A DNA stretch of 64,000 nucleotides from a virus: the IMG/VR virus record IMGVR_UViG_3300027749_000055, positions 1-64,000 of that record, one strand, 5' to 3'. The position numbers and the translations under genes were made by a program. Below the pieces are notes generated by a model. The model was not told the DNA's origin. It was given only the letters and a program-made list of their open reading frames with translations, and did not search any database. This document shows, one piece after another, positions 1,593 to 21,457 of this stretch; within the stretch, counting starts at the first letter, position 1; every line of letters begins with the position of its first letter.

Positions 1593-2197
1593 TGGATAAG
1601 TGTATGAACTTGGTTGGCTGGCATTGTGTATATGGGCATTTCGGCGTAACGATTCCAACTGGTTTGCTCAAAGCCTTCGTGTTCCCAGAATCCTACCGAT
1701 GTGAGTTCTGGTTCGAACGCAATGCCGAGGTTCTGGCTAGAGGCGACCTTGGCTACTTCGCCTAGTAAAGCCTTGCCTACTCCGCTTGTGGTGTGGGTTG
1801 AGCCGATGTAATGAATGTAGAGTTCCTTTAGTCGGGGTTGAATCATCGTTGCGCCGACAGTCTTGCCTTCCGTATCCTTGGCTACCAGAATGGATACGGG
1901 GGCGTCTGGGTGTTCGTATTCTTCCTTCTCAAAGAGGGATAGGGCGGCGTAGGTCATACGGTATCCGAGCCATAGTTCGTGCTGGCTGGGGTCGGTTGGT
2001 TCTCCCTTGGGGAGTATGTCTATGCCTTGCGCCTTGGCTTGGTCAAGAACGCTTGATTGAGCGTCTCGGATTGCTTCTTCGTCTGTTAGGGGAGTAATCG
2101 AGCCTGTGAACTGCTTAGAGCCTTTGGGGTATCTTCCTGAACCTTCCCCACCTTTGGTAAAGGGGAGTAAAAGTGCGTCGGTGCTAAAGCGGTTCAT
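1589..2197 (-). CDS. leader/KGG-motif protein with GNAT acetyltransferase domain
   Basis: Start re-called at MNRFSTDALLLPFTK|GGEGSGRY; GNAT motif A (SGVGKALL) and FWEHEGF. Confidence 0.8.
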   Translation of the reverse strand: MNRFSTDALLLPFTKGGEGSGRYPKGSKQFTGSITPLTDEEAIRDAQSSVLDQAKAQGIDILPKGEPTDPSQHELWLGYRMTYAALSLFEKEEYEHPDAPVSILVAKDTEGKTVGATMIQPRLKELYIHYIGSTHTTSGVGKALLGEVAKVASSQNLGIAFEPELTSVGFWEHEGFEQTSWNRYAEMPIYTMPANQVHTLIQ

Positions 2198-7881: not shown

Positions 7882-9618
7882 TTACGCCGAGGTGGTCTTG
7901 AAAATGCCCTTGTCAGACGACCAACCGTATCCTTCGGGAAGCAGGTAGTCACCAATGACGATATTGAAGTTAGCGTCGTTTGTCCACTCGGAGTCCCGTG
8001 CTGTCCGCATAAATTCACGGTCAATCGGTTCTCTAGAAATCTGTCGTGCTGGCTCACCCTGAATCTTGTCCAAGTTCCTAGCACCCGTGAAGTCAGCACC
8101 GACAAGGTTTGCACCTTCAATGTTGGCAAATGCAAGGTCAGCACCGTTGAAGATTGTTTCTGCTTGGTCACGTCTACCGTCAAGTTTTACTTTTGCAAAG
8201 TTGGCATTGGTGAGGTTAGCGTCAATGAATTTGCCACCAATCTCACGACCAGCGAAGTTCACATTGGAAAGATTTGCACCAGAGAAGTCTGCCTTCAACT
8301 CACCACGATAATCTGCCGTGAAGCCCTTGTCATTTACCTTGGGGTCGGCAAATGTTGAGCCACTTAGGTCAGCCATAGCGAACGACGGTAGTTTCATTCC
8401 GTAGGAGTTTGCCTCAAAACCACGCAAGTCGGCATTTCGCAAATCGGCACTTTCAAAGGTGGTGTTCCTTATGTCGGTTCCACCAATTCCCTTAGCGGAA
8501 GCGGCGGTTCGCACCCCTTGAAGATTCGCCCCGTCAAACGAAGCCCTAAAAGGCTTCATTCGTGCAAGGTTCGCACCGGAGAGGTCAGCGTCTTGGAAGT
8601 TTGCCCCCTCCAACTTTGCCCCCGACAAATTGGCATTGACCAAAGTTGCGTTGGAAAAATTGGCTTGTTCGGCGTTTACCTTCGTCAAGTTTGCGTCGGT
8701 AAGGTCTGCGCCTCGGAAACTACCCAATGGGACATACGCCTTAGTGAAATTAGTGCCAATAAGTTTTGCGCCGCTGAAGTCGCTCTCCTTGCCACGTTGT
8801 TCGGTGAAATCCTTGCCGGAAATGTCTTGTCCGGCAAAATCAGCCCTGATGTGCAAATCGCCAGCGACCCGTGCGGTGCTGAAGGTGTCGCTCGTCCATT
8901 CGACGGGTGCGGTGGGGAAACAGTGGGTGCAAAGCGTTGAGCCACCTTGGGCAACGGCTTCTTCTTCGGTCAAACCAGAAAAACGAGGCAACCATACAAA
9001 AGAAGTAGGGGTTATGCCGTTATTGCAAGAATGGCACTCCATTGACGAGTGAATGTGACCGTCTTGAACTCCAAAGTATCGGTTCCAACCCTCATAGTGG
9101 GAGTCGGCTTCCTCATAAACGGCACGGGCGGTGTCACGGGCTTCCTTGGTCTTTTCAAGTTCCGCCATAGATTTATCAAAATCTTCTTTGTAGTTGCGAG
9201 GCGACCCATACTGATTCTTTTCGGGAAACTCACCAAACTTGCCAGCGAGCCGTGCTTCGATAAGTTGGAACGCCTTTGGGTTCACCATTTGCTCGCCCGT
9301 GACGGTGGTGTAGACAGTCCGTTGTTGCTTGCCGTAGCCCTCCTTCTTTACTTCTACGCCTTGCTTTGCATACATAGCGGCACGTTCCTCGGCAACCATT
9401 TTGTCTGCAACCGTTCCCTGAAACTTGTAATACTTCTCGGCAATGTCGGTGTCTATACGCACCATTTCTTCACGGTCAGTGATTTTGCCGTTGGTGTTCA
9501 CTCCGGCGGGGTAACGACCTGTCCCCTCAGGGTGACGACCCGAACCAGGCCCACCTTTAGCAACGGGGTAGTTGCTCAACGGGCGCAACAGTTCTGAGGT
9601 TGAGAACGGGGTCTTCAT
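7882..9618 (-). CDS. leader/KGG-motif protein with Cys/His zinc domain and pentapeptide repeats
   Basis: MKTPFSTSELLRPLSNYPVAK|GGPGSGRH; GHIHSSMECHSC...LCTHCFP; many A(N/D)(L/F)xx pentapeptides. Confidence 0.85.
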   Translation of the reverse strand: MKTPFSTSELLRPLSNYPVAKGGPGSGRHPEGTGRYPAGVNTNGKITDREEMVRIDTDIAEKYYKFQGTVADKMVAEERAAMYAKQGVEVKKEGYGKQQRTVYTTVTGEQMVNPKAFQLIEARLAGKFGEFPEKNQYGSPRNYKEDFDKSMAELEKTKEARDTARAVYEEADSHYEGWNRYFGVQDGHIHSSMECHSCNNGITPTSFVWLPRFSGLTEEEAVAQGGSTLCTHCFPTAPVEWTSDTFSTARVAGDLHIRADFAGQDISGKDFTEQRGKESDFSGAKLIGTNFTKAYVPLGSFRGADLTDANLTKVNAEQANFSNATLVNANLSGAKLEGANFQDADLSGANLARMKPFRASFDGANLQGVRTAASAKGIGGTDIRNTTFESADLRNADLRGFEANSYGMKLPSFAMADLSGSTFADPKVNDKGFTADYRGELKADFSGANLSNVNFAGREIGGKFIDANLTNANFAKVKLDGRRDQAETIFNGADLAFANIEGANLVGADFTGARNLDKIQGEPARQISREPIDREFMRTARDSEWTNDANFNIVIGDYLLPEGYGWSSDKGIFKTTSA

Positions 9619-9648
9619 AGCCCCTAGATTACACCAGCGATTTTGAAT

Positions 9649-9777
9649 TTAGTCGCAGCAAGAATCCCGCCACCCACACTTGCGACACTTGAAGTGGGCG
9701 TGTTCGGGGGTGAGTTCAGAACCACAATGCGGGCACTCGGTGAAACAGGCAAGCGAATTATTTGTTCTTTCGGTCAC
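9649..9777 (-). CDS. CPxCG-type zinc-ribbon microprotein (42 aa)
   Basis: Hand translation ...ECPHCGSELTPEHAHFKCRKCGWRDSCCD*; GTG start. Confidence 0.65.
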   Translation of the reverse strand: MTERTNNSLACFTECPHCGSELTPEHAHFKCRKCGWRDSCCD

Positions 9778-9982
9778 GAAACCACTTCACCAAGTTGCGG
9801 GAGTAAACAATACCGTAGAAGAGTCCGAAAAAATCAAAGCCGTATTGGTGGCTAACGACTCCGTAGATAAGCCACAAGCACAAATTGAATAATACAACTA
9901 GCCAACTCCACCAATACTTACGTCCAATTAGAAACGAACCGCAGACACCGATTCCCTCTAGAACCCACGACCACAGTTGCAT
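9758..9982 (-). CDS. PnuC-like small membrane protein
   Basis: 3 TM segments; GRKYWWSW...QYGF pattern. Confidence 0.6.
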   Translation of the reverse strand: MQLWSWVLEGIGVCGSFLIGRKYWWSWLVVLFNLCLWLIYGVVSHQYGFDFFGLFYGIVYSRNLVKWFRDRKNK

Positions 9983-10726
9983 TTAGTAGTCGTAGTCGTA
10001 ATCGTCGTAATCGTCGGGTTCCCTAAAGTTGTCGTCTTCTCGACTCTCTTCTGCGTAATCTGTTGCCCTTCCTTCAATCCAAGAGTCAGAGTAGCCTTTT
10101 CCGCCGCCCGTGTAAGCAAAGTGCAACGCTTGTCCAGCCGTGCAGATTGGAACTCGCTCGCCCTTGGTGTTGTCTCCGAAGACCCAACTGTTAGGGGTAA
10201 GTTCCTTTGGTGCGTCTTCTTCCTTGCCCGATTGAGAAAAAGAAAAGTTGGTAAAACCCTTAATCAACGACTCGGCTCGAACCGCATAAGCACCTTTGGT
10301 TTCGTATTTTCCGTCATTGGCAAGGTCGGTCATAATGCTGTTGATTTTGTCGGGCAAAGAAAACTTGTAGTCCACCCGTGCTGTGCGCTCGTCGTCTAAG
10401 AAAACTTCGTAGTCATCGACCTCCACGTCTCCGGCGGGATACATAGTGTATGCGTCGTAGTTTTCGTCCTTGTTGGGGTCAAGGTAGCCCCTGCGCTCGT
10501 TGCTTGAAAACTCGTAATACTCCACATTGCCGTTGTTTTCCTTGACGGTTTGAACTGCCGGTATGGGCATCTTGCGACCAATTGCTTGACGGTAGCGAGA
10601 CAACTCGCTGTTTGCTTCAATTCTGAAGTCTTCCTTGTGGCGACCACTGCCCGGCCCGCCTTTGACGACGGGGTAGGTGCTGGCGTTCGGTAGCAGTGCG
10701 TCAGTTGAGAATGGGTTGTTGCTCAT
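9983..10726 (-). CDS. leader/KGG-motif acidic protein
   Basis: MSNNPFSTDALL...VVK|GGPGSGRH; D/E/Y-rich, ends DDYDDYDYDY. Confidence 0.8.
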   Translation of the reverse strand: MSNNPFSTDALLPNASTYPVVKGGPGSGRHKEDFRIEANSELSRYRQAIGRKMPIPAVQTVKENNGNVEYYEFSSNERRGYLDPNKDENYDAYTMYPAGDVEVDDYEVFLDDERTARVDYKFSLPDKINSIMTDLANDGKYETKGAYAVRAESLIKGFTNFSFSQSGKEEDAPKELTPNSWVFGDNTKGERVPICTAGQALHFAYTGGGKGYSDSWIEGRATDYAEESREDDNFREPDDYDDYDYDY

Positions 10727-10768
10727 ACCCTAAACAATACACCCCACCTGCGACACAGCGGTTGATAG

Positions 10769-11152
10769 TTACTCGTCCTGAAGAATCCTGTCCAACGTGG
10801 CGTTGAGTTCGTCCTGTTGCCCCTTTCCATTCTTTACGCCGTCCTGCACCATTTGGTTCAGGCGGTTGATGTTGTGCTGGTAGTTGGCTTTGATTACGTC
10901 GTAAGCGTCGCTGGTGGTCTGTGAGAGGACGGCTGAAGCCACCGCCATTTCTTCGTCGGTCATTTCGCCCGCCAGCCATTTCTTCGTAATCTCGCCCGCC
11001 CGTAGAGCGTGATTCACGGTCACTTGGTGACGGTCATACTTGGCGTGGTTCTCGAACATTTCCTCGACTTGTGCGATGAGGTAGCCCAACTTCTCGGCTT
11101 CGTGTTGAATCGAGGCAATGAGCGACGGGTCTGGATACTGAGGCTTATTCAC
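10769..11152 (-). CDS. hypothetical helical protein
   Basis: ORF in minus-strand operon. Confidence 0.65.
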   Translation of the reverse strand: MNKPQYPDPSLIASIQHEAEKLGYLIAQVEEMFENHAKYDRHQVTVNHALRAGEITKKWLAGEMTDEEMAVASAVLSQTTSDAYDVIKANYQHNINRLNQMVQDGVKNGKGQQDELNATLDRILQDE

Positions 11153-11369
11153 TGCAAATCCGAATCACTAACTCTGAGGTGACGTGATACTTCTTCGCCA
11201 CGTCTGCGGGGTCTTCACCCTTGGTCACAAGCCGACGAATTGCCTCAATTGTCCTGTGTCGTGAGTCCTGTCCACCACAGCCTCGACACTTGCCTCGATA
11301 CGGGATTTCACTATCCACCCATTCGGGCGGGCGGGAATCCACAAGGTCGTGGGGGTAAATCAACTTCAC
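11145..11369 (-). CDS. small CxxC + HTH-like protein
   Basis: CRGC, then GEDPADVAKKYHVT HTH-like pattern. Confidence 0.55.
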   Translation of the reverse strand: MKLIYPHDLVDSRPPEWVDSEIPYRGKCRGCGGQDSRHRTIEAIRRLVTKGEDPADVAKKYHVTSELVIRICSE

Positions 11370-11427
11370 CGAGCCAACCGATACTCGTTACGGTTCTGGG
11401 CGGCTCGGATTGAGCGAACGTCCTGCA

Positions 11428-11649
11428 TTAGCGGTTGCGAGCCTTCTCTAAGCGGTTGATTTCGTCGTTGATGTAGAAGATTGCCTTTTTCAAGTCCTCA
11501 ATGTGCCTTTGGTCGTCCTTGATACCGGCTCGCCACAAATACTTGATTGCGTTTCCAATGTTGAAATTCCGGTGACGGGTCACTTCGATACATTCAATCC
11601 CCGACGGGTCGCTTGTGTAATGTGCGGGGTGATTTACAAAGTCTTTCAC
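11428..11649 (-). CDS. DUF3310 family protein
   Basis: VNHPAHY...IECI...GNAIKYLWRAG.K...EDLKKA signature. Confidence 0.85.
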   Translation of the reverse strand: MKDFVNHPAHYTSDPSGIECIEVTRHRNFNIGNAIKYLWRAGIKDDQRHIEDLKKAIFYINDEINRLEKARNR

Positions 11650-11790
11650 TTTTTCTCCTTCAGTGTTGCCAACAATACCGAAATTGGGGTTAGCAAATTG
11701 GCGTTTACCGCAACTCTTTTAGGGTCGCCATTGTAAGCGGTTCCAAGGGGGTAAAGGTCGCTGGCAAACCCCCCACCCAATCGGAAACAT

Positions 11791-11997
11791 TCATTTGGGG
11801 TCTTCGTAAATCAACGGATACAAAATTTCTACGACGGATTCGTGTTCGAAGAACTTTGCGGTCATTAGTGCCCTTTCCACACCGTCCACCAACTCTTTGA
11901 TTCGAACCTTCATTTTGGCTTCACGGACGCAGTGTGGGCAATAATCCTCACTCCAACCGTGCGGGCAATCAGGAGGGGAGGCGGTTCGCTCGGTCAT
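11791..11997 (-). CDS. hypothetical protein (CPH...CPHC)
   Basis: ORF in operon. Confidence 0.55.
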   Translation of the reverse strand: MTERTASPPDCPHGWSEDYCPHCVREAKMKVRIKELVDGVERALMTAKFFEHESVVEILYPLIYEDPK

Positions 11998-12067
11998 CTG
12001 CCAAACTGCCAGCCCGCCATAATGCAGAGCAAACCCGCCAACACAGCAACAACCAACGCTGCCGTGT

Positions 12068-12304
12068 TCACGGTGCGGGTTTCTCAGCGAGAGCCTCTAG
12101 CCCCTTACGGATACAAACGTCTACGCCATCTCCGTAGCGGTGCTGAAAGCGTGTCGTGTAGTCCCAGAACGGGGTATCCCCGAAAGCGGTTTCCATTATG
12201 ACGTAGGTGTTGAGGTCGTCTGCGTCCGTGCCACCCGATTCCCGCCCAATGTGCAAAGACTTGATTGGAAGGTCGTTTACTCGAACGTCGATGTGAATGG
12301 ACAT
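12068..12304 (-). CDS. hypothetical protein
   Basis: Start MSIHIDVRVN overlaps upstream stop; HRYGDG..VC motif. Confidence 0.6.
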   Translation of the reverse strand: MSIHIDVRVNDLPIKSLHIGRESGGTDADDLNTYVIMETAFGDTPFWDYTTRFQHRYGDGVDVCIRKGLEALAEKPAP

Positions 12305-12501
12305 TACTTGGCGGCGACAACCACGGGTCGAATCGCAACAAGATAAAAAACCGCTGCGAAAATGCCGAAGAGGAAAATCAGAATCGCCCACAGAGCCTTG
12401 CTCTTACCAGCCTTGGCGTAAGCCGTGCTGGGCTGAACGAGCGAGTCAATAAACGAGCCAATTGTCACAATGGCAACAAACAAAATAATAAACGAGTCCA
12501 T
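12304..12501 (-). CDS. DUF2516-like membrane protein
   Basis: AYAKAGKSKALWAIL...YL..IRP resembles actinobacterial DUF2516; own promoter 12527-12556. Confidence 0.6.
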   Translation of the reverse strand: MDSFIILFVAIVTIGSFIDSLVQPSTAYAKAGKSKALWAILIFLFGIFAAVFYLVAIRPVVVAAK

Positions 12502-12645
12502 AGCCCCCCCCTGATTGGTTGCACCCACTCTACCAGAGTTGATGATTTGTGGTCAAGTGTTATTTGCCCCTAGCCCAAAATCCAGCAATAAACCCAGTGG
12601 TGCTAGAAATGAATGAGGAAAGCACGACGATAGCGGTGTGCGACA

Positions 12646-12807
12646 TTAGTTCTCCCTTTGTTGAATGTTGTAAGCGATAAGCAGGGCTTCGGCAAAACCC
12701 TGAGCAAAGCCGTTTTCATAGTCACTCTGCTTGGCTAACGCCAACTTGGTGTGGTGACGTGCTTCGTTTGAGAGAACCTCGACTGCTTCATTTAATTTTT
12801 TGCCCAC
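12646..12807 (-). CDS. hypothetical protein
   Basis: YENGFAQGF pattern; start uncertain. Confidence 0.45.
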   Translation of the reverse strand: MGKKLNEAVEVLSNEARHHTKLALAKQSDYENGFAQGFAEALLIAYNIQQREN

Positions 12808-13021
12808 GACCGTCCTTTCGCCATTCGACTGCGTTGCGAAAGTATATAACTTGATAAACGCAAGACGCAAGCAAAAATCCGTATTGTTTACTTATCACGG
12901 AGTAAACAATCCACGTCACGTTGTAAAACGACATTACGACCCACGCCCACCAATAACGTTTGCCCGTCAGGTAGGTTCCCGTCAAACCCATAATGCTCAA
13001 AATCCACGACCACAGTTTCAT
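12788..13021 (-). CDS. PnuC-like small membrane protein (paralog of 9758-9982)
   Basis: MKLWSW...GKRYWWAW...QYGF. Confidence 0.6.
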   Translation of the reverse strand: MKLWSWILSIMGLTGTYLTGKRYWWAWVVMSFYNVTWIVYSVISKQYGFLLASCVYQVIYFRNAVEWRKDGRGQKIK

Positions 13022-13527
13022 ACGCTTGGTGTCCATAATTCCCCGTTGCGGAGAATCGGCGGAATATCGTCAATCGGCTGGTCGAGGGTGATGACCCTGA
13101 TATTTGTTTCTGCAAACATTTGCTCGGCGGACTCGATACTGTCGTCCCAATGCGAGTTGTGGTGTGGCGAATTGTAGCGCACCACGGTTGTAATGCCCGC
13201 TTGAATAATTGCACGGGCGCAGTCGTGGCACGAAGCCCAAACCGCCACCATTGTCGCCCCACGGGTAACAAGACCGTTTCGGGCGGCTTGATAAATCACA
13301 TTGCGCTCGGCGTGTTCGACAAAGTGATACTTGGTTGGGCGTTGCCACCGCTCGGAAGATTTCACTACGTCATTTGGAAAATCGTTCACCGCCAAAGCGA
13401 ACAAATCGTTGCCGCCGTAAGTCAAACAAGCCGCATTTTGCGTCGAGGGGTCAGGGCTTTGCGCCGCCAAAAGCAGAACATATTTCATTTGCGGGTAAAA
13501 ACCGCCTAGTTCCTGCGCCGTAGCCAT
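13018..13527 (-). CDS. dCMP deaminase-like protein
   Basis: SPDPSTQ, HAERN, CxxC (CHDC) zinc-deaminase motifs. Confidence 0.85.
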   Translation of the reverse strand: MATAQELGGFYPQMKYVLLLAAQSPDPSTQNAACLTYGGNDLFALAVNDFPNDVVKSSERWQRPTKYHFVEHAERNVIYQAARNGLVTRGATMVAVWASCHDCARAIIQAGITTVVRYNSPHHNSHWDDSIESAEQMFAETNIRVITLDQPIDDIPPILRNGELWTPSV

Positions 13528-13561
13528 TTCCAAATGGTAACAGGGTTGGGTGGTAAAAAAA

Positions 13562-13828
13562 TTATTCACCAACGGTGGCGGACAACGAATCTGGGTCGTC
13601 CAAATCACAATGTTGAGCGTTGGTGCGAAGGTGCTTCCAAACGCCCTTTGGCATAACGACACAACCACCGCAGTTTACGCACGTCTTGGCGTATTTTGCC
13701 ACCCACGTTCGAATAAAAGCAGAGACAGCCCCAGAAGCGTATTCTTCCACGCTGACGTTTGTTTCCTTCGCCGCCGTTTCGAGAAATGTGTATTCTTCTT
13801 CAGTTAGGTCAATAACAAATGTGCCCAC
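13562..13828 (-). CDS. ribbon-helix-helix-like protein with CxxC tail
   Basis: FVIDLTEEEY..LE.AA pattern; CVNC. Confidence 0.55.
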   Translation of the reverse strand: MGTFVIDLTEEEYTFLETAAKETNVSVEEYASGAVSAFIRTWVAKYAKTCVNCGGCVVMPKGVWKHLRTNAQHCDLDDPDSLSATVGE

Positions 13829-13849
13829 GGCTTACAGAATACCCTTTGA

Positions 13850-14272
13850 TTATTTCAAGTCGAGTGTTGCAAAACGACAGAGCGACAGGGGAATCTCCAC
13901 AAAATCTTCTTCGCTTGTGTAGATTGTGCGCTTCTTCACAATCTTGGCGGTAGTGAAATCTTCTCCCCGCACCGCAAGAAAACGGGTTCGCTCGTCATTG
14001 AGCATAAGAAAATGATGGTTTGGCAAGGCAAACTTCAGTTTTCGGGCGGCAAAGTGAACGGCAGAGTACGGAAATGTATTTCCCTTCCAACTGTGCTTGA
14101 CTTCGACTTCCCAGCCAAACGTTTTACCACCACGGGTTCCGAGTAGGTCAATGCCGTAATCGTCGGGATTTACCCACGCTTCGTAGCCTTTGACTTCGAG
14201 CCACGCAATCACTTGGTGCTTTGCCCCGTCATCAGCCTCATACAGCGAAGGACTGAAGGGCTTGGAAACCAT
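13850..14272 (-). CDS. PD-(D/E)xK-type nuclease-like protein
   Basis: YGIDL...EVEVK motif. Confidence 0.65.
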   Translation of the reverse strand: MVSKPFSPSLYEADDGAKHQVIAWLEVKGYEAWVNPDDYGIDLLGTRGGKTFGWEVEVKHSWKGNTFPYSAVHFAARKLKFALPNHHFLMLNDERTRFLAVRGEDFTTAKIVKKRTIYTSEEDFVEIPLSLCRFATLDLK

Positions 14273-14321
14273 TTTGCCACACTACCACGGTTGGTGACTG
14301 CGTGTTGTAATTACGTCGTTG

Positions 14322-15515
14322 TTATTCCGCTACAACCGCAGTAATTGGGATACCGAGACGGTGCAGGGCTTCGTTGGGCATTTCGACACCCTCGACCCAC
14401 TCTTCGTAAATGCTCTCTGGGGCGGAAAAACCGTAATCGCCCACCTTGAATTTTACCTTTGGTTGCTTGGGCGTGGATTCACGACCTTCCAAAACCTCAG
14501 TGAAATCTTCGTCGTCAAAGCCCGTGCCCTCCAGCGAATCAAGGCTCTTTAGAACGCTACCGAGTAGGTCGTTGTCGTAGGTTGCTTTGTCCGCCGTGCG
14601 GTTATCCGCTAGAACAATTTTGGCAGCCGCCACTTCGTCCACGTCCACCCAAACCACAGCAATTTCTGTCCACCCAAGGGCTGAGGCGGCGGCGGCGGTA
14701 TGGTTGCCCTTCAAAATCTCGTTGGTGCGTCGGTTTACAACTACGGGGCGATACTGCCCCAAAACCCGCAAAGACTCGCTCACAGCCCCTATATCGCCCT
14801 CACGGGGGTTCTTGTGGTATCGGCGTAGTTCCGAGAGGGGGACAAGTTCTGTGGCTTCCAGCGTGTATTCAGCGGGTTTAGAGGTCTTTGCTTCCTTGGC
14901 TTCCTTGGGCTTTGGCGGGCGAGGTTCCTTGGGAACGTCAAGTCGTGCCCGCAGTTCCTTGTTGATGGCGGCTTTTTTGTCCCCCACAACCTCGATAATG
15001 GAGTTCAACCAGATTTCGTGGAGTTCGTGGTCGAGTTGCGCCCGCCACGCCCCAATGCGAATTGGAACATTGAGGTTCTCGATTTCGTCGGTTTCGTTTT
15101 TGGGCTGGGAAACGCCTCCGCCGGACGATTCGGACTCAGATTCCAATTCTTCCAGTATTGACGGGTCGTAGCCAGTTCCTTCGAGGTCGGGCAGTTCCCG
15201 CAAAAGGTCAATCAGGTATTGGTTGTTGTAGGTGGCAATGTCCGAAGTGCGGTTGTCGGTAATAAGTACCCGCAGAGCGTCACTTTCCGAGCCTTCGTAG
15301 CGAGTAATGGCGACTTCCTTCCAGCCCAACGACTTTGCCGCCTTCCAAGTGTGCGTTCCGGCAATGATTATGTCGTTCCACACAACCACGGGTGAGTATT
15401 GCCCATTGACGGTGAGTGATTCGGCAATCGCCGCCACGTCGCCCATACGGGGGTTTGAGGGGTGGGGCTTGATTGAGTCAATGGCGACTTTTTCCGCCCG
15501 AACGTTGATAGCCAT
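14322..15515 (-). CDS. protein with two tandem ParB/Srx-like domains
   Basis: Two copies of NPRxGD..A..ESL...GQY.PVVV...G(T/N)HT..AA..LGW.E...DNRT. Confidence 0.85.
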   Translation of the reverse strand: MAINVRAEKVAIDSIKPHPSNPRMGDVAAIAESLTVNGQYSPVVVWNDIIIAGTHTWKAAKSLGWKEVAITRYEGSESDALRVLITDNRTSDIATYNNQYLIDLLRELPDLEGTGYDPSILEELESESESSGGGVSQPKNETDEIENLNVPIRIGAWRAQLDHELHEIWLNSIIEVVGDKKAAINKELRARLDVPKEPRPPKPKEAKEAKTSKPAEYTLEATELVPLSELRRYHKNPREGDIGAVSESLRVLGQYRPVVVNRRTNEILKGNHTAAAASALGWTEIAVVWVDVDEVAAAKIVLADNRTADKATYDNDLLGSVLKSLDSLEGTGFDDEDFTEVLEGRESTPKQPKVKFKVGDYGFSAPESIYEEWVEGVEMPNEALHRLGIPITAVVAE

Positions 15516-15539
15516 ACAGCAAGGCTACCCCCCTTAGAT

Positions 15540-15610
15540 AAAAAAGAGGGGTGGCACGACAACGAGATAGGAGGAACCTATTGCGTGTCTGTTTGCCCCG
15601 CTGCCGTGCC
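15540..15610 (-). ncRNA. putative anti-SD small RNA 2
   Basis: TTGCAG-N17-TACACT promoter (15645-15617); 14-bp stem 15610-15597/15566-15553 enclosing GGTTCCTCCTAT; T-tract end. Confidence 0.55.
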
Positions 15611-15657
15611 GATAACAGTGTATCAGGGTTGAGTACCAACTGCAAGTTATTTATTAG

Positions 15658-15729
15658 CACGGGGGCAAGGACTCGAACCCTGAATGGCAGAGCCAAAATC
15701 TGCTGTGTTGCCAATTACACCACCCCCGT
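15658..15729 (-). tRNA. tRNA-Gln (TTG)
   Basis: Cloverleaf: ACGGGGG/CCCCCGT acceptor, GCAGA-TTTTGGC-TCTGC anticodon arm, GGTTCGAGTCC T-arm. Confidence 0.9.
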
Positions 15730-15751
15730 AAGGCTTGTTCAGTGTATCGCC

Positions 15752-16717
15752 TTAGCGACGGGGGTAATTGGATAATGAACGAAGAAGGTCGTCGGTAAAA
15801 AAGGACTTTTTGGTGTCTTGCGGAACGGTTGTGATTTCCTGCAGTTTCACGCCCTTCTCCTTGTCCCACGTCAAGCCCAACTTCACGGCGTTATCCCACG
15901 TCGTGTTGATTTCGTAGACCGGCAGACGCATTGAGGGGTTCAAAATGTGCATTGCGATAGCCGCAGCCCAATTGTGGTGTCCGTCGAGAACGTGACCGTC
16001 CGAGGTGACAAGGATTCGCTGGTCGTCGGGGTAGCCACCCTTCTTCAAATACGATTCCAAAATTCCACCAGCCTTACGCCCGTTGATTTCTTTCTGAATA
16101 GGCTTTAGGTCTTCGGGGTTCACTTCTTTTTTAGTGAAAGTAATGCCGTGCTTGTCGCCCAGCCATTTCAAAAACTCAGGACGCTCGTTTGATTCAATTT
16201 GTGGCATTTTGATTCGGGCAAAGCCCTTGCCATTGTGTCCAATGAGATATGTGCCCATAAGACGCAGTTCGGTAATGTCGAGCGGTGACTTTCCGCCGAG
16301 GTGCGCCATTGCTTTGATAATGTCGGGAAATGACGTGCGTGTAATTTCGGGGTCACGACCACGCCTCAATGCACGGGCGATATTGGAAGCCATTTCCTTT
16401 ATTTCTTCGGGCGTTTTACCAGCCGTTGTGTGTGGGCCGTGTTCCGGTTGCTTGCGATTAGCGGGAGTTTTGGAATTCGGATTGGTCTTCGGTGCTTTAA
16501 GTCCGTTTCTACTAGCGGGGGCAGGCTTGGGCTTTGCCTCCGTTTTCGGTTGAGGCATTTCCTCACGGGTGGACTGATAACGGTCTTCGGAAACTTGATT
16601 ACGGGCTGGGTCGGATTGACGCTCAGGTTGAGCCGTGGTGTGCCCCTTGACACCAGACCCCTCGCCACCCTTGGCGACGTGCGACAAAAGACTGTCGATA
16701 GAGAATGGCGTTTTCAT
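15752..16717 (-). CDS. leader/KGG-motif protein with ParB/Srx-like domain
   Basis: Start re-called at MKTPFSIDSLLSHVAK|GGEGSG; LKPIQ...ILVTSDGHVLDGHHNW. Confidence 0.8.
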   Translation of the reverse strand: MKTPFSIDSLLSHVAKGGEGSGVKGHTTAQPERQSDPARNQVSEDRYQSTREEMPQPKTEAKPKPAPASRNGLKAPKTNPNSKTPANRKQPEHGPHTTAGKTPEEIKEMASNIARALRRGRDPEITRTSFPDIIKAMAHLGGKSPLDITELRLMGTYLIGHNGKGFARIKMPQIESNERPEFLKWLGDKHGITFTKKEVNPEDLKPIQKEINGRKAGGILESYLKKGGYPDDQRILVTSDGHVLDGHHNWAAAIAMHILNPSMRLPVYEINTTWDNAVKLGLTWDKEKGVKLQEITTVPQDTKKSFFTDDLLRSLSNYPRR

Positions 16718-16755
16718 ACCCCCAAGGATACAGAACGATTTTTGAAATCCAATTG

Positions 16756-16828
16756 TGGAGAGTAAGGGACTCGAACCCTTGACCCCCTGCTTGCAAAGCA
16801 GGTGTTCTACCAACTGAACTAACTCCCC
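16756..16828 (-). tRNA. tRNA-Ala (TGC)
   Basis: GGGGAGT acceptor, CCTGC-TTTGCAA-GCAGG anticodon arm, GGTTCGAGTCC T-arm. Confidence 0.92.
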
Positions 16829-16955
16829 AAATTCGTCACATCACTCTAGCAACCCTGTTATTGTTCTTCTCGCCGTCAAATAACACGGTCTTCGCTGGAA
16901 AGTCTGGCGTTGTAATCAAACTGAAGCAATCCGACACTGCAAAGGTTTAACGATT

Positions 16956-16982
16956 TACCCCCACTGCAAAGTGGGGGTTTTT
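16956..16982. terminator. intrinsic terminator hairpin
   Basis: ACCCCCAC-tgcaaa-GTGGGGGT followed by TTTT. Confidence 0.6.
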
Positions 16983-16985
16983 CGT

Positions 16986-19469
16986 TTATTGCGCCATTCC
17001 TCGCTGAGCAAGCGCAACAAGAAGGTCGCCCAACAATGAGTTGTCTTCTTGCTCGTCGTCGTCCGAGCCGTCAATGGCACGGTTCACGATTCCCCGCTTG
17101 CGCTCGATAAGAGCCGCAATGTCTTCGTCAATCGTGTTCTGCGTGAGCATTAGCCAACCCGTCACGGAGTCTGTCTGACCGATACGGTGGCAACGGTCTA
17201 CCGCTTGTTCCATATCGGCGGGAGTCCAACCTTGCTCGATAAACAGCACGTCGCTCGCTGCAGTCAGGGTCAGACCAACGCCAGCCGCCTTGATTTGGCA
17301 GGCGATTACCTTCTGGTCGTCTGACTGTTGAAATGCGTCCACGGCTTCCTGACGCTTCTTCATAGACACGCCACCCTGAATCTTGCAATTGCCCGCAAAG
17401 TTATCGGCAACCATATCCACGACTTCCGTGTGCCAACCAAAGACAACCAACTTTTTGTCCTGAGCAAGAAAATCCCGAATCCATTGCTCAGCCGCCTTCA
17501 TCTTCGCCTTGGCTGCGAGTTGCTTTAACGTCGAAATAGAAACAAGGTGTTCTGCGCCACGGGCACGAAGGGCACGTTGCCACGCTTCGTTCTGCGCTTC
17601 CTTGTCGGACGCACCGGACTCACGGGCAATGCGAAGAGCCTCTTCCGAGAGATACTTCACAATGTCGGCTTCCGCCTTCTTGTATTCCTTCATAATGTTC
17701 TTGTCGCCCTCAACGAGAACTTCAGACCACATCTTCGGGGGCAACTCGGTCAGCACGTCAGCCTTGCGACGGCGAACGTAACAGGTCGCACGGAGTTTGC
17801 GATTGAGCGAGGCAAGGGTGCGAGCGTTTGAGCGTCCGTAGGCGTTGCGGAATTGCGACGACCCACCGAAATCGCCCAAGCGGTTCAGCACTTTCAACTG
17901 CGTCATTAGTTCAAGGGGTTGGTTTACGATTGCCGTTCCCGATAGGCAGATACGAACGCCGTCGTCCGTCACTTTCTCGGAAAGCGAGATACACGCCTTG
18001 GCACGAATCGTGCTTCCGTTTTTGATGTAGTGGCTCTCGTCCAAGACCAAGCCCCTGATGTTGCCAAACTTGGAATACCAATGGTCGAGAATGTCGTAGT
18101 TCACGACGTAGATGTCAGCGTCGGGGAGGTTTCCGGACGTGCCCGACAGCACAGCGACCCGAACGCCGTCAATCCACCTCTCAGCCTCTCGCTTCCAATT
18201 TATTTTGAGCGAAGCGGGAACGACCACGACTGCGGGAAAAGCGTTAGCCGCTTTGAGAACGCCCAAGCCCTGCGGGGTCTTGCCTAATCCCATTTCGTCG
18301 CCAATCAGAACGCCCTCATTACCTTCACGAACCTTGGTGAACTTGCCGTCGGCATACTCAAAGCCCATAGCCCGCATTGCATAGCGAACGCCCGCACGTT
18401 GGTAGGGAAACAGTTGAAGGTTGGGCTTACCAAACCCTTCAATAATCAACTCAGCGTCGCTGGCGGACGACGAGGCAATAATGTCTCGAACGTCAGCGGC
18501 TTCTTGGAGAAGAGCCATTGCGTCGGGGGTGACGACAGCCTCTTGCAGTGTTACAAAAGCCAGCACTTCGTCGGCGGCTTCGATTGGAACAAGCCACGCT
18601 CGCTTTGACGGATTCCACGACGAACCAGGCATTTGCCTAACGAGCGAAATGGTCTGAGCGTCGTAAGGGAATGAAAGCGCAAAGTTACGTTCGTGAACGC
18701 TGACGACTGAGCCGTTGCCCATATCAACGTCGGGCAAATCCTTCACTTCGTCGGTGAGGGTGATGTTGTATTCCTCGGCAATCTTGCGGACAAAACCCAC
18801 ACATTCCTTGGAGACAATCCACAACTTTTTTGCGCTATCCCAACGGCGATTGGGAATCGTGCGAACTGCGTCCACAATGTTCGGGTTGTAGTCGAAGCGA
18901 AGGGCGATTGACCCCTCTAAGATGAAGGCGTGACCGGCTGGCTCGGCGGGATTAGCGGACGTGTCTACCTCGTTGAGAATCGCCGTTGCACGTTCAGTGA
19001 TTGGAATGTTGTAGCGACCAGCCCAAGTGACGACTGAGCCATACTTCGCCACGCTGACTTGCCAGCCTCGAAGGTCACGATTCCAAATCGCACCCAAGCC
19101 GGACTTCGGATAGGCAATGTCGCCGTAGGGCAAGAAAACCAGCACCTTGCCACCACGAACGTCAATGCAACGAATGTCGTCTGCACCACGGGCTTCCGGT
19201 GGTTCGGGAATGGCGGTGTAGTCAATTCCGCTCTTAGACAACTGACCCTGATACTTGTGAAGCATTGTCCACGCCTTGCGCTGAAGGGCTGGTGTCCACA
19301 CTTCGGGCGGGGTGCTGGCAAGTTTCTTGCCAAACTTCGAATCAGTGCCGTTGAAACCTTGACCGTCGCTAGACGACGCACCGTCGCAACGGGCGGCTAT
19401 CGCTTGGATAGCGGAAACGAGAATGGGATTTGGTGTGTGAGCGGTGGTTTGCTCTAGAGTCATAGTCAT
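16986..19469 (-). CDS. SNF2/SMARCAL1(HARP)-like helicase
   Basis: GDEMGLGKT, DESH, LSGT, QAVDRCHRIGQ; N-terminal repeated HARP-like W-rich units. Confidence 0.9.
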   Translation of the reverse strand: MTMTLEQTTAHTPNPILVSAIQAIAARCDGASSSDGQGFNGTDSKFGKKLASTPPEVWTPALQRKAWTMLHKYQGQLSKSGIDYTAIPEPPEARGADDIRCIDVRGGKVLVFLPYGDIAYPKSGLGAIWNRDLRGWQVSVAKYGSVVTWAGRYNIPITERATAILNEVDTSANPAEPAGHAFILEGSIALRFDYNPNIVDAVRTIPNRRWDSAKKLWIVSKECVGFVRKIAEEYNITLTDEVKDLPDVDMGNGSVVSVHERNFALSFPYDAQTISLVRQMPGSSWNPSKRAWLVPIEAADEVLAFVTLQEAVVTPDAMALLQEAADVRDIIASSSASDAELIIEGFGKPNLQLFPYQRAGVRYAMRAMGFEYADGKFTKVREGNEGVLIGDEMGLGKTPQGLGVLKAANAFPAVVVVPASLKINWKREAERWIDGVRVAVLSGTSGNLPDADIYVVNYDILDHWYSKFGNIRGLVLDESHYIKNGSTIRAKACISLSEKVTDDGVRICLSGTAIVNQPLELMTQLKVLNRLGDFGGSSQFRNAYGRSNARTLASLNRKLRATCYVRRRKADVLTELPPKMWSEVLVEGDKNIMKEYKKAEADIVKYLSEEALRIARESGASDKEAQNEAWQRALRARGAEHLVSISTLKQLAAKAKMKAAEQWIRDFLAQDKKLVVFGWHTEVVDMVADNFAGNCKIQGGVSMKKRQEAVDAFQQSDDQKVIACQIKAAGVGLTLTAASDVLFIEQGWTPADMEQAVDRCHRIGQTDSVTGWLMLTQNTIDEDIAALIERKRGIVNRAIDGSDDDEQEDNSLLGDLLVALAQRGMAQ

Positions 19470-19553
19470 ACCCATACTTTACCACGGTTGAGAGGCAGAA
19501 TCTAGTTATTTTGGGCGGTTACAAGAGATTTCTTATAACCTAGGCGGAATTGC

Positions 19554-19817
19554 CTACTTACCTCGGTTGTGGTGTTTGAACAAGGCTTGCTCGGTGGTGT
19601 TAGCCCACTCCGCAATCGTGCGCCAAGTAATTCCGTGTTCACGGAGACGGGTGACGGTCTGGCGACGGTCAATTCCCAACTCCACGACCTTCTTCTCGCT
19701 ATCACGCATTTGCTTGCATACGTCCTGAATGTGTTGTAGCAGTGAAGCGACTTCGGGCGAGTAGTCCTCGTCAATCGTCTTGCGGGTGGGTAGCGGGGTC
19801 ATAGGGTCTTTGGGCAT
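19554..19817 (-). CDS. HTH DNA-binding protein
   Basis: GITWRTIAEWANTTEQAL. Confidence 0.7.
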   Translation of the reverse strand: MPKDPMTPLPTRKTIDEDYSPEVASLLQHIQDVCKQMRDSEKKVVELGIDRRQTVTRLREHGITWRTIAEWANTTEQALFKHHNRGK

Positions 19818-20022
19818 TGGAGTATTCCTTTCGCACGGTTGAGTGTAGTCGGGTTTGGAACGGGCTGTCTAGTTGGTTTCAGAAGAATCGCTTTTTACCA
19901 CTTCAGCGACCTTGCATTGGTTGGCGCAGAACCACTCCCCAGACACAAAAAATGCCCGAAGACGACAAAATAAGCAGTGACCTGCCTCGACTTCGGTGGG
20001 GACTAGATTTTCCATAACCCCA

Positions 20023-20397
20023 CTATACCTCAATAATGGTAATTTCTAGTGCGTCCCGTCCGAACTGCGGTGCTAAAAACGTCAGTTTGGTAACTATGTT
20101 GGCGTTATCGTCAATCAACACGCCTGCGTCCACAATTCCGTCAATGGCGGCTTTGACCACAGGGAAACAAGCCCCTACGTCTTGACGGTATCGAGCGTTC
20201 AGGACATACGGCTGAACCACGACCTCGATTTGTTCCAAATGTGGAACCATTGCGTCTTGCGCCAACTCGCAGAAAATCTGCCGCCAAGATTTCACTACTT
20301 TCGCCCGTGCGTGGTGGTGGACGGTGCGTTCCTTGTTGAGCGTGAAATCGGGGCGTTCTTCGTGAACAAGAACGTAGGACTTGGTTTTTTTGCTCAC
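20023..20397 (-). CDS. RusA-like Holliday junction resolvase
   Basis: D....VKAAIDGIVDAGVLIDDN motif. Confidence 0.75.
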   Translation of the reverse strand: MSKKTKSYVLVHEERPDFTLNKERTVHHHARAKVVKSWRQIFCELAQDAMVPHLEQIEVVVQPYVLNARYRQDVGACFPVVKAAIDGIVDAGVLIDDNANIVTKLTFLAPQFGRDALEITIIEV

Positions 20398-20882
20398 AGG
20401 CTCAGCACCTTGAAGGGCGCACGGACTTGGGCGGTGTGATACGCCGAGGCTTTGAGTGCGGTGGTAATACGGTCTTTGCCCGTCATAGTGGTTCCTTGCA
20501 GGGCGAACATTGCGGACATTGCCGATAAGCCTCCTGCGCCAATAGCCGTATAGTTCTCACGAAGTCGAACTACCGAGAAATCATTTCCAATTACCCATAC
20601 GCCCACAACACTAATTACCAAAATCGTTGTGTCGTTTTCGGCTTGCGACGAAGAATTGGATATCCACCAACTTTCAAGGTGGTCACGGAGTTTGTGAGGG
20701 TCGCCAATAAAAGAATCGTAGGCAATCTCCGCAAGACGGAACCCCCCAGAAGCACCCAGAAGGTAATCCTCAGCCTTCCAAACCTTGATTTCGGTCAGCG
20801 ACACGCTGTCTTCGTCAAATGCGCCGGAATCTCCGCCAATCCACGCTTGCTTCTTGTCGTGCCAGCCAACGATAACGGTCAT
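20394..20882 (-). CDS. HslV/proteasome-like Ntn hydrolase
   Basis: N-terminal MT-VIVG, GGDS, K, AIGAG. Confidence 0.75.
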   Translation of the reverse strand: MTVIVGWHDKKQAWIGGDSGAFDEDSVSLTEIKVWKAEDYLLGASGGFRLAEIAYDSFIGDPHKLRDHLESWWISNSSSQAENDTTILVISVVGVWVIGNDFSVVRLRENYTAIGAGGLSAMSAMFALQGTTMTGKDRITTALKASAYHTAQVRAPFKVLSL

Positions 20883-20913
20883 AGGGCAAGAATACTAGAC
20901 CCTAGTGAAATAT

Positions 20914-21432
20914 TTAGATTGAGCCTCGCATACTTGTTCCAAAATCGTTGATTTGACGCATTACAGAGCCCCAAGCACAGTTGTAGTGGCGACCTTCGAT
21001 ACTGCCGTCGGCGTTGCGGGCAAAGTCCTTTTTAGACGGAATCCAAGTGACCTTCACATAGGAGTCAGGCTTGCTCTCTCCCTCGGCTGGCTCGCTCATC
21101 TTTTTTGCACAAACTTTGCAAACAACCTTGTCTATGTCGGGCGAACCCGCTGCCAACTCGACAGTTTGAGCGTTGCGAAGTCGAAGTTTGGAAAACGCTG
21201 TCTTGATAGCGGCGAGCGTGTCGCCAACTTGAATCTTGTGCCACTCCGAGTTGAGGTTGGAACGGAAGACACCGTTACGTCCAGCAACGTAGTCGTGGGT
21301 GTGAGCGTCGGGCATATGCTTACCCGCAATTTGGCTACTGCCAGCGGGGTAACGCCCCGAACCCGGCCCACCTTTAGTCAGCGGGAAGAAATGCTCGTTG
21401 ATGAGATTTTCGGTGGAAAACGGGTTCGTCAT
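20914..21432 (-). CDS. leader/KGG-motif protein of unknown function
   Basis: Start re-called at MTNPFSTENLINEHFFPLTK|GGPGSGRY; CKVC...HYNC. Confidence 0.75.
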   Translation of the reverse strand: MTNPFSTENLINEHFFPLTKGGPGSGRYPAGSSQIAGKHMPDAHTHDYVAGRNGVFRSNLNSEWHKIQVGDTLAAIKTAFSKLRLRNAQTVELAAGSPDIDKVVCKVCAKKMSEPAEGESKPDSYVKVTWIPSKKDFARNADGSIEGRHYNCAWGSVMRQINDFGTSMRGSI

Positions 21433-21457
21433 ACTTGTAACGATACAACAGGGTTGG

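What the first reader, a model, noticed from the sequence alone, without database searches (positions are those of the whole stretch)
7882..21432. Shared PFSTxxLL leader, a putative capsid-targeting signal, also found once at a C-terminus
Seen: N-termini MKTPFSTSELLRPLSNYPVAK (9618), MSNNPFSTDALLPNASTYPVVK (10726), MKTPFSIDSLLSHVAK (16717), MTNPFSTENLINEHFFPLTK (21432), MNRFSTDALLLPFTK (2197), and weaker MPTFSEARL in 5085. The ParB-like protein also ends in KKSFFTDDLLRSLSNYPRR, a near copy of the 9618 leader. Otherwise unrelated proteins therefore share a portable peptide lying on the discarded side of the predicted cut. Inference: a packaging signal analogous to the T4 capsid-targeting sequence, and position-independent.
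Basis: partly seen in the sequence, partly recalled or inferred. Interest (0 to 1): 0.85.

Follow-up and report, generated by a model that had tools for sequence, protein, structure and literature searches.

The report
Shared N-terminal address peptide on phage cargo
An uncultured lake phage starts many unrelated proteins with the same short peptide, which ends at a conserved junction motif; it is most likely a removable label that loads these proteins into the virus head, as phage T4 does with a different peptide, but no experiment has tested this.

Summary

- **Leader.** Five window genes (minus-strand starts 2197, 9618, 10726, 16717, 21432) and three more in the same 113.7-kb phage genome begin with a 15-22-residue peptide. 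It reads M-x-N-PFSTxxLL ... hydrophobic-x-K and ends exactly at the first K|GGxGSG junction tag.
- **Portability.** The payloads behind it are unrelated, and conserved residues use different codons. The peptide precedes none of the 25 non-N-terminal tags.
- **Relatives.** Related uncultured phages carry the same leader (class A), plus two other leader classes, on many cargo genes. A profile finds 724 protein clusters, and complete matches start at residue 1. Orthologous payloads carry leader A or leader B.
- **New here.** The same element (invariant F, T, LL, K) sits inside a conserved helical head-module protein, just before that protein's own tag.
- **C-terminal copy.** It does not show position independence. 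Homologues continue there with a tag and another module. Here a one-base shift in a C-run ends the frame 22 nt before a tRNA gene. The copy ends the 16717 gene, not the Pfam-detectable ParB gene.

Best reading (about 0.55): a removable address peptide like the T4 capsid targeting sequence, in a phage lineage with an XkdF-type protease. Neither cleavage nor packaging has been measured. This scan has reported analogous leader-plus-joint systems on other phage DNA.

The parts
9556..9618 (-). Leader A (21 aa) of the 578-aa pentapeptide-repeat cargo gene 7882-9618. It ends at the Lys of the first K|GGPGSG tag.
   Evidence: AlphaFold2 pLDDT is 30-39 for residues 1-44. Orthologues keep leader A or carry leader B.
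10661..10726 (-). Leader A (22 aa) of the 247-aa gene 9983-10726, whose payload is unknown.
16670..16717 (-). Leader A (16 aa; Ile in place of the usual Thr) of the 321-aa gene 15752-16717.
   Evidence: The 93%-identical orthologue P0050 has Thr at that position.
21373..21432 (-). Leader A (20 aa, subtype ending FPLTK) of the 172-aa gene 20914-21432.
2153..2197 (-). Leader A (15 aa, shortest form) of the 202-aa GNAT acetyltransferase gene 1589-2197.
   Evidence: Its payload is homologous to a leaderless internal module of polyprotein 2215-5085.
5008..5085 (-). 26-aa N-terminal peptide of polyprotein 2215-5085. It matches leader A only weakly and may be another leader type. Its start overlaps the upstream stop codon (ATGA).
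7854..7871 (-). Minimal 6-aa N-terminus before the first tag of polyprotein 5082-7871. It is an example of a tagged chain without leader A.
15755..15811 (-). C-terminal near-copy of leader A (19 aa) that ends gene 15752-16717. I read it as a truncated internal junction.
   Evidence: Homologues P0051 and P0052 continue here with a tag plus a module. Removing one C of the C-run reads NYPVAK.
15657..15729 (-). tRNA-Gln gene 22 nt downstream of the stop codon that ends the C-terminal copy.
16755..16828 (-). tRNA-Ala gene just upstream of the 16717 leader gene.
59486..60505 (-). Major capsid protein (339 aa) with no tag, no leader and no long N-terminal extension. It is context for the head module. 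The portal, the protease and the conserved helical protein lie beyond the window at genome 81669-83339, 80005-81519 and 73885-75096.

Best explanation
Leader A is a short, flexible, portable N-terminal address peptide. Its N-terminal half (N-P-F-S/T-T-x-x-L-L; F and the first L invariant) would be the recognition part. Its C-terminal end (hydrophobic-x-K followed by G) is the first copy of the junction tag found between all cargo modules.

Proposed sequence of events (every step is inferred, none shown):
1. The leader docks the newly made cargo chain onto a component of the assembling head core.
2. The likeliest partner is the one that also binds the identical element inside the conserved 403-aa helical head protein (genome 73885-75096), or that protein itself, or the long form of the XkdF-type protease protein (80005-81519).
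3. The chain is enclosed in the procapsid.
4. The protease cuts after the Lys of every tag, which frees the leader and separates the modules.
5. The modules (GNAT, pentapeptide-repeat, DUF3626-like and others) stay in the head and enter the host with the DNA.

Two other leader classes appear to be interchangeable alternatives. Class B is amphipathic (xEIxxWVxxAK). Class C (MDFRxIxxILK) was seen only in relatives. The C-terminal copy is a leftover junction, not a second kind of signal.
For: - **Anatomy.** Eight genes start with the element and each runs directly into a tag. It precedes 0 of 25 non-N-terminal tags in this genome. In the database hits it precedes 28 of 83 N-terminal tags against 4 of 349 internal tags (p 2.5e-18). 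One address per chain is what a loading signal needs. A pure cleavage determinant would be needed at every tag.
- **Portability.** The first payload modules of the eight genes are not homologous to each other. A GNAT module occurs both with and without the leader. One payload is a stand-alone leader-A gene in L076 and L060, and the last module of a 793-aa polyprotein in L066. Orthologues of the pentapeptide cargo carry leader A or leader B.
- **Selection.** There is synonymous codon variety at the conserved residues. In 31 distinct leaders from 17 loci, F5, L10 and K21 are invariant. A profile finds 724 clusters (at 50% identity) at E<=1e-3, and full-length matches lie at residues 1-36.
- **Head context.** One tagged cluster lies directly behind the portal gene and the protease gene (Peptidase_S78_2). 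Tags occur in loci where the whole 504-aa protease protein is conserved. They are absent from 20 of 22 loci where only its XkdF domain is related.
- **Copy in a core protein.** The best-conserved part of the helical head protein family is the same element followed by the tag, with F, T, LL, K and G invariant in 31 sequences.
- **Structure.** The leader and tag have pLDDT 30-39, and the folded payload starts near residue 45.
- **Precedent.** T4 internal proteins have 10-19-residue N-terminal propeptides. Their N-terminal part carries the targeting determinants and their end carries the processing determinants, and the prohead protease removes them (PMC9026906, PMC3012670). The first 30 residues of P1 DarB suffice for encapsidation (PMC9024508).
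Against: - There is no virion proteome, cleavage map or expression timing, and no cultured relative carries the system.
- Three tagged chains begin with large modules and no leader (70696, 73852, 76316). Three others have only 6-12 residues before the first tag (7871, 77237, 106756). Leader A therefore cannot be the only route into the head, if these proteins are packaged at all.
- Four of the five window leader genes (9618, 10726, 16717, 21432) carry promoter-like elements of their own. Two of them, 16717 and 21432, also lie among DNA-metabolism genes, far from the head module. Late expression is an assumption.
- The element is internal in the helical head protein and in rare fusions (P0084, P0108, L066), so it is not strictly an N-terminal device.
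- AlphaFold2 gives no confident docking of the element within the helical protein (pLDDT 45-59).
- Sequence analysis cannot separate targeting from protease docking.
Confidence: 0.55

Rival explanations
1. The element is a protease-docking exosite, not a capsid address. It recruits the XkdF-type protease (or its N-terminal region) to the first junction of a substrate, and something else decides whether the protein is packaged.
For: - The element always lies immediately upstream of a tag, also in the helical head protein, where it precedes that protein's only tag.
- Tags co-occur with the long form of the protease protein.
- Where the element is internal (L066, P0084, P0108) it still abuts a tag.
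Against: - 25 of 40 tags in this genome and about 345 of 349 internal tags in database hits lack the element. They keep the hydrophobic-x-K|G consensus, so cleavage sites evidently do not need it.
- Removing a 15-22-residue N-terminal peptide has no obvious purpose unless the peptide did something beforehand.
- This rival is not exclusive of the main reading. If the protease is itself built into the procapsid, docking to it would also achieve targeting.
Confidence: 0.2
2. The element is a safety propeptide. It would keep effectors inactive, mark unpackaged copies for degradation, or bind a chaperone in the producing cell until it is removed.
For: The peptide is on the side predicted to be cut off.
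Against: - One 15-22-residue disordered peptide is unlikely to inhibit unrelated folds.
- Internal modules of polyproteins with similar enzymes have no such peptide.
- No known degron or chaperone motif was recognised.
- This reading does not explain the copy in the conserved head protein.
Confidence: 0.1
3. The element has no function of its own. It is a hitch-hiking relic of cassette duplication and recombination at the repeated tag DNA, inherited together with the tag.
For:
- Fusion and fission events leave the element internal or terminal.
Against: - F, L and K are invariant across 31 divergent leaders and across a protein family at 32-59% identity. This comes with free synonymous change and variable spacers, which indicates purifying selection on the peptide.
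- The element is strictly enriched at chain starts.
Confidence: 0.05
4. The element is a double-glycine-type export leader, cut after G-G by a C39 peptidase transporter, as in class II bacteriocins.
For: It resembles that class superficially: an N-terminal 15-22-residue peptide with hydrophobic residues and an acidic residue, ending in K-G-G. The comparison consensus is from my own knowledge.
Against: - No Peptidase_C39 is encoded in the genome.
- The spacing from the F-x-x-x-x-L-L core to G-G varies from 5 to about 20 residues.
- Relatives have K-G-D or K-Y-E instead of K-G-G.
- The same tag recurs up to six times inside single chains in this genome and up to nine times in database proteins.
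Confidence: 0.02

Closest known systems
Capsid targeting sequence (CTS) of phage T4 internal proteins IPI, IPII, IPIII and Alt, removed by prohead protease gp21 (PMC9026906, PMC3012670; Mullaney and Black 1996 as cited there)
   Same: - It is a short N-terminal propeptide (10-19 residues in T4, 15-22 here) on otherwise unrelated proteins.
- It is bipartite: recognition residues lie near the N-terminus and the protease consensus lies at the end.
- The cargo set is diverse and evolves fast.
   Different: - There is no sequence relationship.
- The junction here is hydrophobic-x-K|G, not L/I-x-E|.
- The protease is XkdF-type (Peptidase_S78_2), and no Peptidase_S77 match was found (though that search had no positive control).
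- At least three interchangeable leader classes exist.
- The cargo is often a polyprotein with up to six internal tags.
- The leader is also embedded in a conserved head protein.
- T4 has experimental proof; nothing here has been measured.
N-terminal packaging signal of phage P1 DarB (PMC9024508)
   Same: An N-terminal segment (30 residues) directs a large anti-defence protein, or a reporter, into the capsid.
   Different: - In P1 the signal is described on DarB only (PMC9024508), whereas here one leader is shared by many genes.
- A cleavage tag is coupled to the leader here.
- There is no sequence similarity.
Propeptides of ejection and head proteins of giant phages (SPN3US, phiKZ group) removed by the prohead protease (PMC7411985, PMC10052503, PMC5694885)
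   Same: Many head-internal proteins are trimmed at a short consensus by one head protease.
   Different: I did not read these papers' text; the contrasts rest on my own knowledge. Those phages use T4-like proteases with Glu-type sites, and no conserved portable leader of this kind or regular module junctions have been reported for them.
Polyvalent proteins of phages and conjugative elements (Iyer et al. 2017, PMC5512222)
   Same: Conflict-related domains are strung together in phage proteins that are predicted to be packaged and injected.
   Different: - That paper proposes processing by zincin-like metallopeptidases and anchoring by MuF.
- A term search of its text found no mention of a linker or of XkdF.
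- This genome has no MuF domain.
Encapsulin cargo-loading peptides
   Same: Short terminal peptides load unrelated cargo into an HK97-fold shell.
   Different: - Those peptides are usually C-terminal and stay attached.
- They bind the shell protein directly.
- No protease or junction tag is involved.

Membership tests
T4-type capsid targeting propeptide (functional class) | A short N-terminal peptide shared by otherwise unrelated proteins of one phage | tested here: met
   Eight genes carry it. Their payloads are not homologous by BLASTP. Leaders A and B swap on orthologous payloads.
T4-type capsid targeting propeptide (functional class) | The peptide ends at the head protease's cleavage consensus and is removed in the procapsid | tested here: inconclusive
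   It always ends at the invariant K|G junction tag, and an XkdF-type protease gene heads one tagged cluster. No cleavage data exist.
T4-type capsid targeting propeptide (functional class) | The peptide is sufficient to encapsidate a foreign protein and necessary for packaging its own | not testable with these tools
   This needs a cultured phage or a reconstituted procapsid. No cultured relative carries the system.
T4-type capsid targeting propeptide (functional class) | The cargo is present in virions | not testable with these tools
   Only gene position supports it: a tagged cluster lies behind the portal and protease genes, and the tag is shared with a conserved head-module protein.
T4 CTS / gp21 system (homology) | A gp21-type protease (Peptidase_S77) and an L/I-x-E cleavage motif | tested here: not met
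   The protease domain is Peptidase_S78_2. There is no S77 match in the genome, but the control for that search was silent. Junctions end in Lys, not Glu.
Polyvalent proteins (Iyer et al. 2017) | Several conflict-related domains in one phage polypeptide | tested here: met
   GNAT-like modules occur in 2215-5085, a DUF3626 domain in 5082-7871 and pentapeptide repeats in 7882-9618. There are up to six tags per chain.
Polyvalent proteins (Iyer et al. 2017) | A MuF anchor or a zincin-like processing peptidase in the system | tested here: not met
   There is no Phage_Mu_F match in the genome. Pfam found no metallopeptidase domain in the 19 tagged proteins scanned.
Double-glycine bacteriocin-type leader | Fixed-register leader cut after G-G by a C39 peptidase transporter | tested here: not met
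   No Peptidase_C39 was found, with a positive control in 7 of 14 genomes. The spacer is variable, and relatives have K-G-D or K-Y-E.

The most novel reading that the evidence does not exclude
Cargo loading works by mimicry of core head proteins. Leader A would be a copy of the contact peptide that the conserved helical head protein uses just before its own cleavage tag. Cargo chains would then enter the procapsid by occupying the same binding site as that core protein. Classes A, B and C would address different sites, copy numbers or exit orders. That would be a small 'address code' letting this phage lineage load, cut and inject dozens of shuffled effector modules (40 tags in this genome).
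Probability: 0.25. Interest if true: 0.75.

Novelty: new variant of a known kind. Interest (0 to 1): 0.58.

Why it matters
If the reading holds, capsid-targeting propeptides are not peculiar to T4-like and P1 phages. They would be a general, independently evolved way for tailed phages to carry protein arsenals. Here the lineage has an HK97-type capsid, an XkdF-type protease and probably actinobacterial freshwater hosts.

The defined leader plus junction tag would also help annotation. Hundreds of uncharacterised metagenomic proteins (724 clusters) could be labelled as probable injected cargo and split into modules at the tags.

The system makes testable predictions. It names the residues to mutate (F, LL, K) and a short list of candidate receptors. 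The interchangeable leader classes raise a new question: do different addresses mean different places, amounts or timing?

The same logic could eventually be used to load foreign proteins into such capsids.

Tried and rejected
- **Recent DNA repeat.** Rejected. Codons differ at the conserved residues, and the upstream DNA is mostly unrelated.
- **Cultured relatives with proteomes.** Megablast of the region against phage records found nothing. tblastn with the helical head protein found nothing. The XkdF domain finds Arthrobacter (Laroyevirus) and Microbacterium phages, but their head regions carry no tag and no leader.
- **Literature.** Searches for the tag and for the GHxFxGNQ motif as strings found no relevant paper. 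The polyvalent-protein paper does not mention such a linker.
- **Fold of the helical head protein.** Foldseek against PDB and BFVD gave only generic coiled-coil and helical-hairpin matches with E > 1e-3. 'Scaffold-like' therefore rests on architecture and gene position only.
- **Internal translation start before the element in the helical protein.** A Met lies 2-10 residues upstream in 10 of 14 distinct orthologues. None has a Shine-Dalgarno sequence, and this genome has no such Met. This is unresolved.
- **Single-linkage clustering of all modules from all loci.** It collapsed into one cluster because of tag-adjacent similarity. I replaced it with a within-genome comparison with the tags trimmed.
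- **Remnant of the lost downstream module after the C-terminal copy.** tblastn found none.
- The contigs of P0002, P0051 and similar proteins could not be examined.
- **Pfam on the tagged proteins of the other two clusters.** No domains were found.


Full report
**What is there**

The window is the first 64 kb of a 113,659-bp phage record. CheckV estimates it as 91% complete with linear ends. Nearly all long ORFs are on the minus strand.

Each is 15-22 residues long. Each contains N-P-F-S-T-x-x-L-L or a close variant. Each ends with hydrophobic-x-K and is followed at once by GGxGSG.

The genome has 40 such K|GGxGSG tags in 19 genes, in three groups: 2.1-21.4 kb, 68.0-79.6 kb and 106.2-112.6 kb. 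Three further genes outside the window (starts 73024, 111883 and 112636) carry the same leader. I call this leader class A.

Three genes (79632, 109618 and 110278) carry a different, amphipathic leader, class B. Three have only 6-12 residues before the first tag, and three begin with a large module.

**More than chance, and selected as a peptide**

A loose pattern for the core finds ten places in real genes: eight at gene starts, one internal and one C-terminal. The expected number within the first 12 residues of about 130 ORFs is 0.04, against 8 observed (p ~3e-16).

The element precedes 8 of 15 N-terminal tags and none of the 25 other tags (p 8e-5).

Conserved residues are coded by different codons. 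Ser uses both codon families, and Pro and Leu use 3-4 codons each. The upstream DNA is mostly unrelated. This is not a recent nucleotide repeat.

**Portability**

- With tags trimmed, the first payload modules behind the eight leaders are not homologous to one another. They are a 187-aa GNAT, a 557-aa pentapeptide-repeat protein and unknown modules of 225, 305, 152, 76, 160 and 94 aa.
- The GNAT behind the 2197 leader is homologous to an internal, leader-less module of polyprotein 2215-5085.
- In relatives, one payload is a stand-alone gene with leader A in L076 and L060. In L066 it is the last module of a 793-aa polyprotein, which keeps the element internally.
- Orthologues of the pentapeptide cargo at 39-84% identity keep leader A. 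Two orthologues at 32% identity carry leader B instead.
- AlphaFold2 gives pLDDT 30-39 for residues 1-44 of that protein and a confident fold from about residue 45. The leader and tag are a flexible extension.

**Relatives**

Loci fetched through the protease protein and through the helical head protein are uncultured IMG/VR contigs.

In them the junction tag reads K|GDxxGHxFxGNQ or the long form K|GGPGSGxxxGHPFxGNQ. There are about 6-22 tags per ~20-kb locus. The tag in this genome is a shortened version.

The same three leader classes head many genes there: class A, class B and a class C of the form MDFRxIxxILK. In an alignment of 31 distinct leader-A instances from 17 loci, F, the first L and K are invariant.

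A profile of that alignment, searched against 1.84 billion representative proteins, finds 724 proteins at E<=1e-3 and 271 at E<=1e-10. Some have up to nine tags and 3461 residues. Matches covering the whole profile lie at residues 1-36 of the target.

In the best 150 hits a strict leader-A pattern precedes 28 of 83 N-terminal tags and 4 of 349 other tags (p 2.5e-18). Only two of those four are clear, and both look like tandem fusions of two leader genes.

**The new piece: the element inside a core head protein**

The head module lies on the minus strand, so gene order runs towards lower coordinates:
- a Mu/P23-45-type portal (genome 81669-83339);
- a 504-aa protein whose C-terminal part is an XkdF-type protease domain (80005-81519);
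- one cluster of tagged genes (67.0-79.6 kb);
- further on, the major capsid protein (window 59486-60505).

Within that cluster the 403-aa gene 73885-75096 has orthologues in all relatives. The best-conserved stretch of the family is FxTxxLLTRDFQKS..., followed by K and the tag. F, T, LL, K and several tag residues are invariant in 31 sequences. This genome's copy has a degenerate tag.

AlphaFold2 predicts these parts:
- a long helical hairpin (residues 22-119, pLDDT >90);
- a zinc ribbon;
- a poorly defined segment holding the element and the tag;
- a beta hairpin plus a three-helix bundle (263-375, pLDDT >90).

Fold searches give only generic helical matches. The capsid protein has no tag and no long N-terminal extension. 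I therefore regard this helical protein as a scaffold-like or core candidate. That is an inference.

So the leader on cargo genes is a copy of a peptide that a conserved head protein carries immediately before its own tag.

Tags are found in loci where the whole protease protein is conserved (L005-L019). They are missing in 20 of 22 loci where only the XkdF domain is related. The loci are related to one another, so this is a correlation, not an independent test.

**The C-terminal copy**

It ends gene 15752-16717, which also has the N-terminal leader. That gene has no Pfam match. The detectable ParB gene is 14322-15515.

A 93%-identical orthologue ends the same way. Two homologues at 51% identity have, at that position, a related peptide followed by K|GGQGSG and a further module of about 75 residues.

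In the window the DNA reads TAC CCC CGT CGC TAA. Without one C of the run it reads NYPVAK, exactly the end of the 9618 leader. tRNA-Gln (15657-15729) starts 22 nt after the stop, and tRNA-Ala (16755-16828) lies just upstream of the gene.

The C-terminal copy is thus a junction that lost its tag and downstream module. It is not evidence that the signal works at either end.

**How it most likely works**

The pattern is one leader per chain, at the chain start, in front of a tag that otherwise joins modules. It is portable, exchangeable with other leader classes, disordered and under peptide-level selection. It is also mirrored in a core head protein. All of this is what a removable capsid-targeting propeptide would look like.

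In T4 the 10-19-residue propeptides of internal proteins target them to the scaffolding core. Their targeting determinants lie in the N-terminal part and their processing determinants at the end, and gp21 then removes them (PMC9026906, PMC3012670). In P1 the first 30 residues of DarB suffice for encapsidation (PMC9024508).

I put this reading at about 0.55. The step 'binds a head-core component' is inferred. 'Cut after Lys' is inferred from the invariant K|G and the neighbouring protease gene. 'Packaged' is inferred from gene position only.

The main rival (0.2) is a protease-docking exosite without a targeting role. Most tags lack the element, which argues against it, but the two ideas merge if the protease is itself part of the procapsid core. 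A safety propeptide (0.1), a functionless relic (0.05) and a double-glycine export leader (0.02; no C39 peptidase) are less likely.

**Comparison with known systems and novelty**

The system works like the T4 CTS but is not a member of that system. The protease family differs (S78_2, not S77), the junction ends in Lys rather than Glu, and the peptide is unrelated.

It overlaps the concept of polyvalent proteins (PMC5512222). It lacks MuF and any recognisable metallopeptidase. That paper does not describe such leaders or tags. String searches of the literature found nothing. No cultured phage in the held collection carries it.

I class it as a new variant of a known kind.

Within this scan, other readers noted the same leaders from an overlapping window of this genome (e1-5977149). 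Analogous leader-plus-joint cargo systems were reported on several other phage genomes. One of them has a tag that also sits in joints of head-protease and scaffold polyproteins (e1-5999636). The theme is therefore recurrent, which tempers the surprise but supports generality.

**Limits**

Everything rests on sequence.

Noticed in passing
window 9619-9640, 10727-10748, 16718-16739, 21433-21454 (minus strand, upstream of the starts): Four of the five window leader-A genes share TGTAWYNT followed by exactly 7 nt and then ATG, with no clear Shine-Dalgarno spacing. A TGnTAnnnT-N6-8-ATG/GTG arrangement also precedes the genes starting at 19469, 14272, 13527, 1448 and 62973, and two genes beyond the window. 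This looks like -10 elements of leaderless mRNAs, which would fit an actinobacterial host.
   Followed up: partly
window 15657-15729 and 16755-16828 (minus): The tRNA-Gln(TTG) and tRNA-Ala(TGC) genes bracket the 321-aa leader gene. They are the only tRNAs in the window.
   Followed up: partly
window 30834-41351 (minus): A single 3505-aa ORF lies next to an 899-aa ORF and a 544-aa ORF. It was not examined here.
   Followed up: no
genome 80005-81519 (L001:16005-17519, minus): The protease protein has, before its XkdF domain, a small conserved N-terminal domain, very long Asp/Ser/Glu-rich low-complexity stretches and a Cys-rich segment. This long form co-occurs with the tag system across loci.
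   Followed up: partly
genome 73034-73852 (L001:9034-9852, minus): This is a 272-aa tagged protein with a strongly basic N-terminus. A degenerate leader-A-like element follows, and then this genome's only full GHPFRGNQW motif, which is the long tag form typical of relatives.
   Followed up: no
L009, L014, L015, L016, L060, L065, L075, L082, L083, L084 (orthologues of genome 73885-75096): In 10 of 14 distinct orthologues of the helical head protein a Met lies 2-10 residues before the invariant F, without a Shine-Dalgarno sequence. It could be a relic of a fused leader-bearing gene or an internal start.
   Followed up: partly
window 60526-61278 (minus): This 250-aa protein just upstream of the capsid gene gets a weak PHROG 'head scaffolding' hit. 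It is rich in Ala, Thr, Ser, Gly and Val and looks more like a decoration or beta-rich protein. The true scaffold of this phage is not settled.
   Followed up: no
window 5082-5085: An ATGA overlap joins the stop of polyprotein 5082-7871 and the start of polyprotein 2215-5085. It suggests translational coupling of two cargo polyproteins.
   Followed up: no
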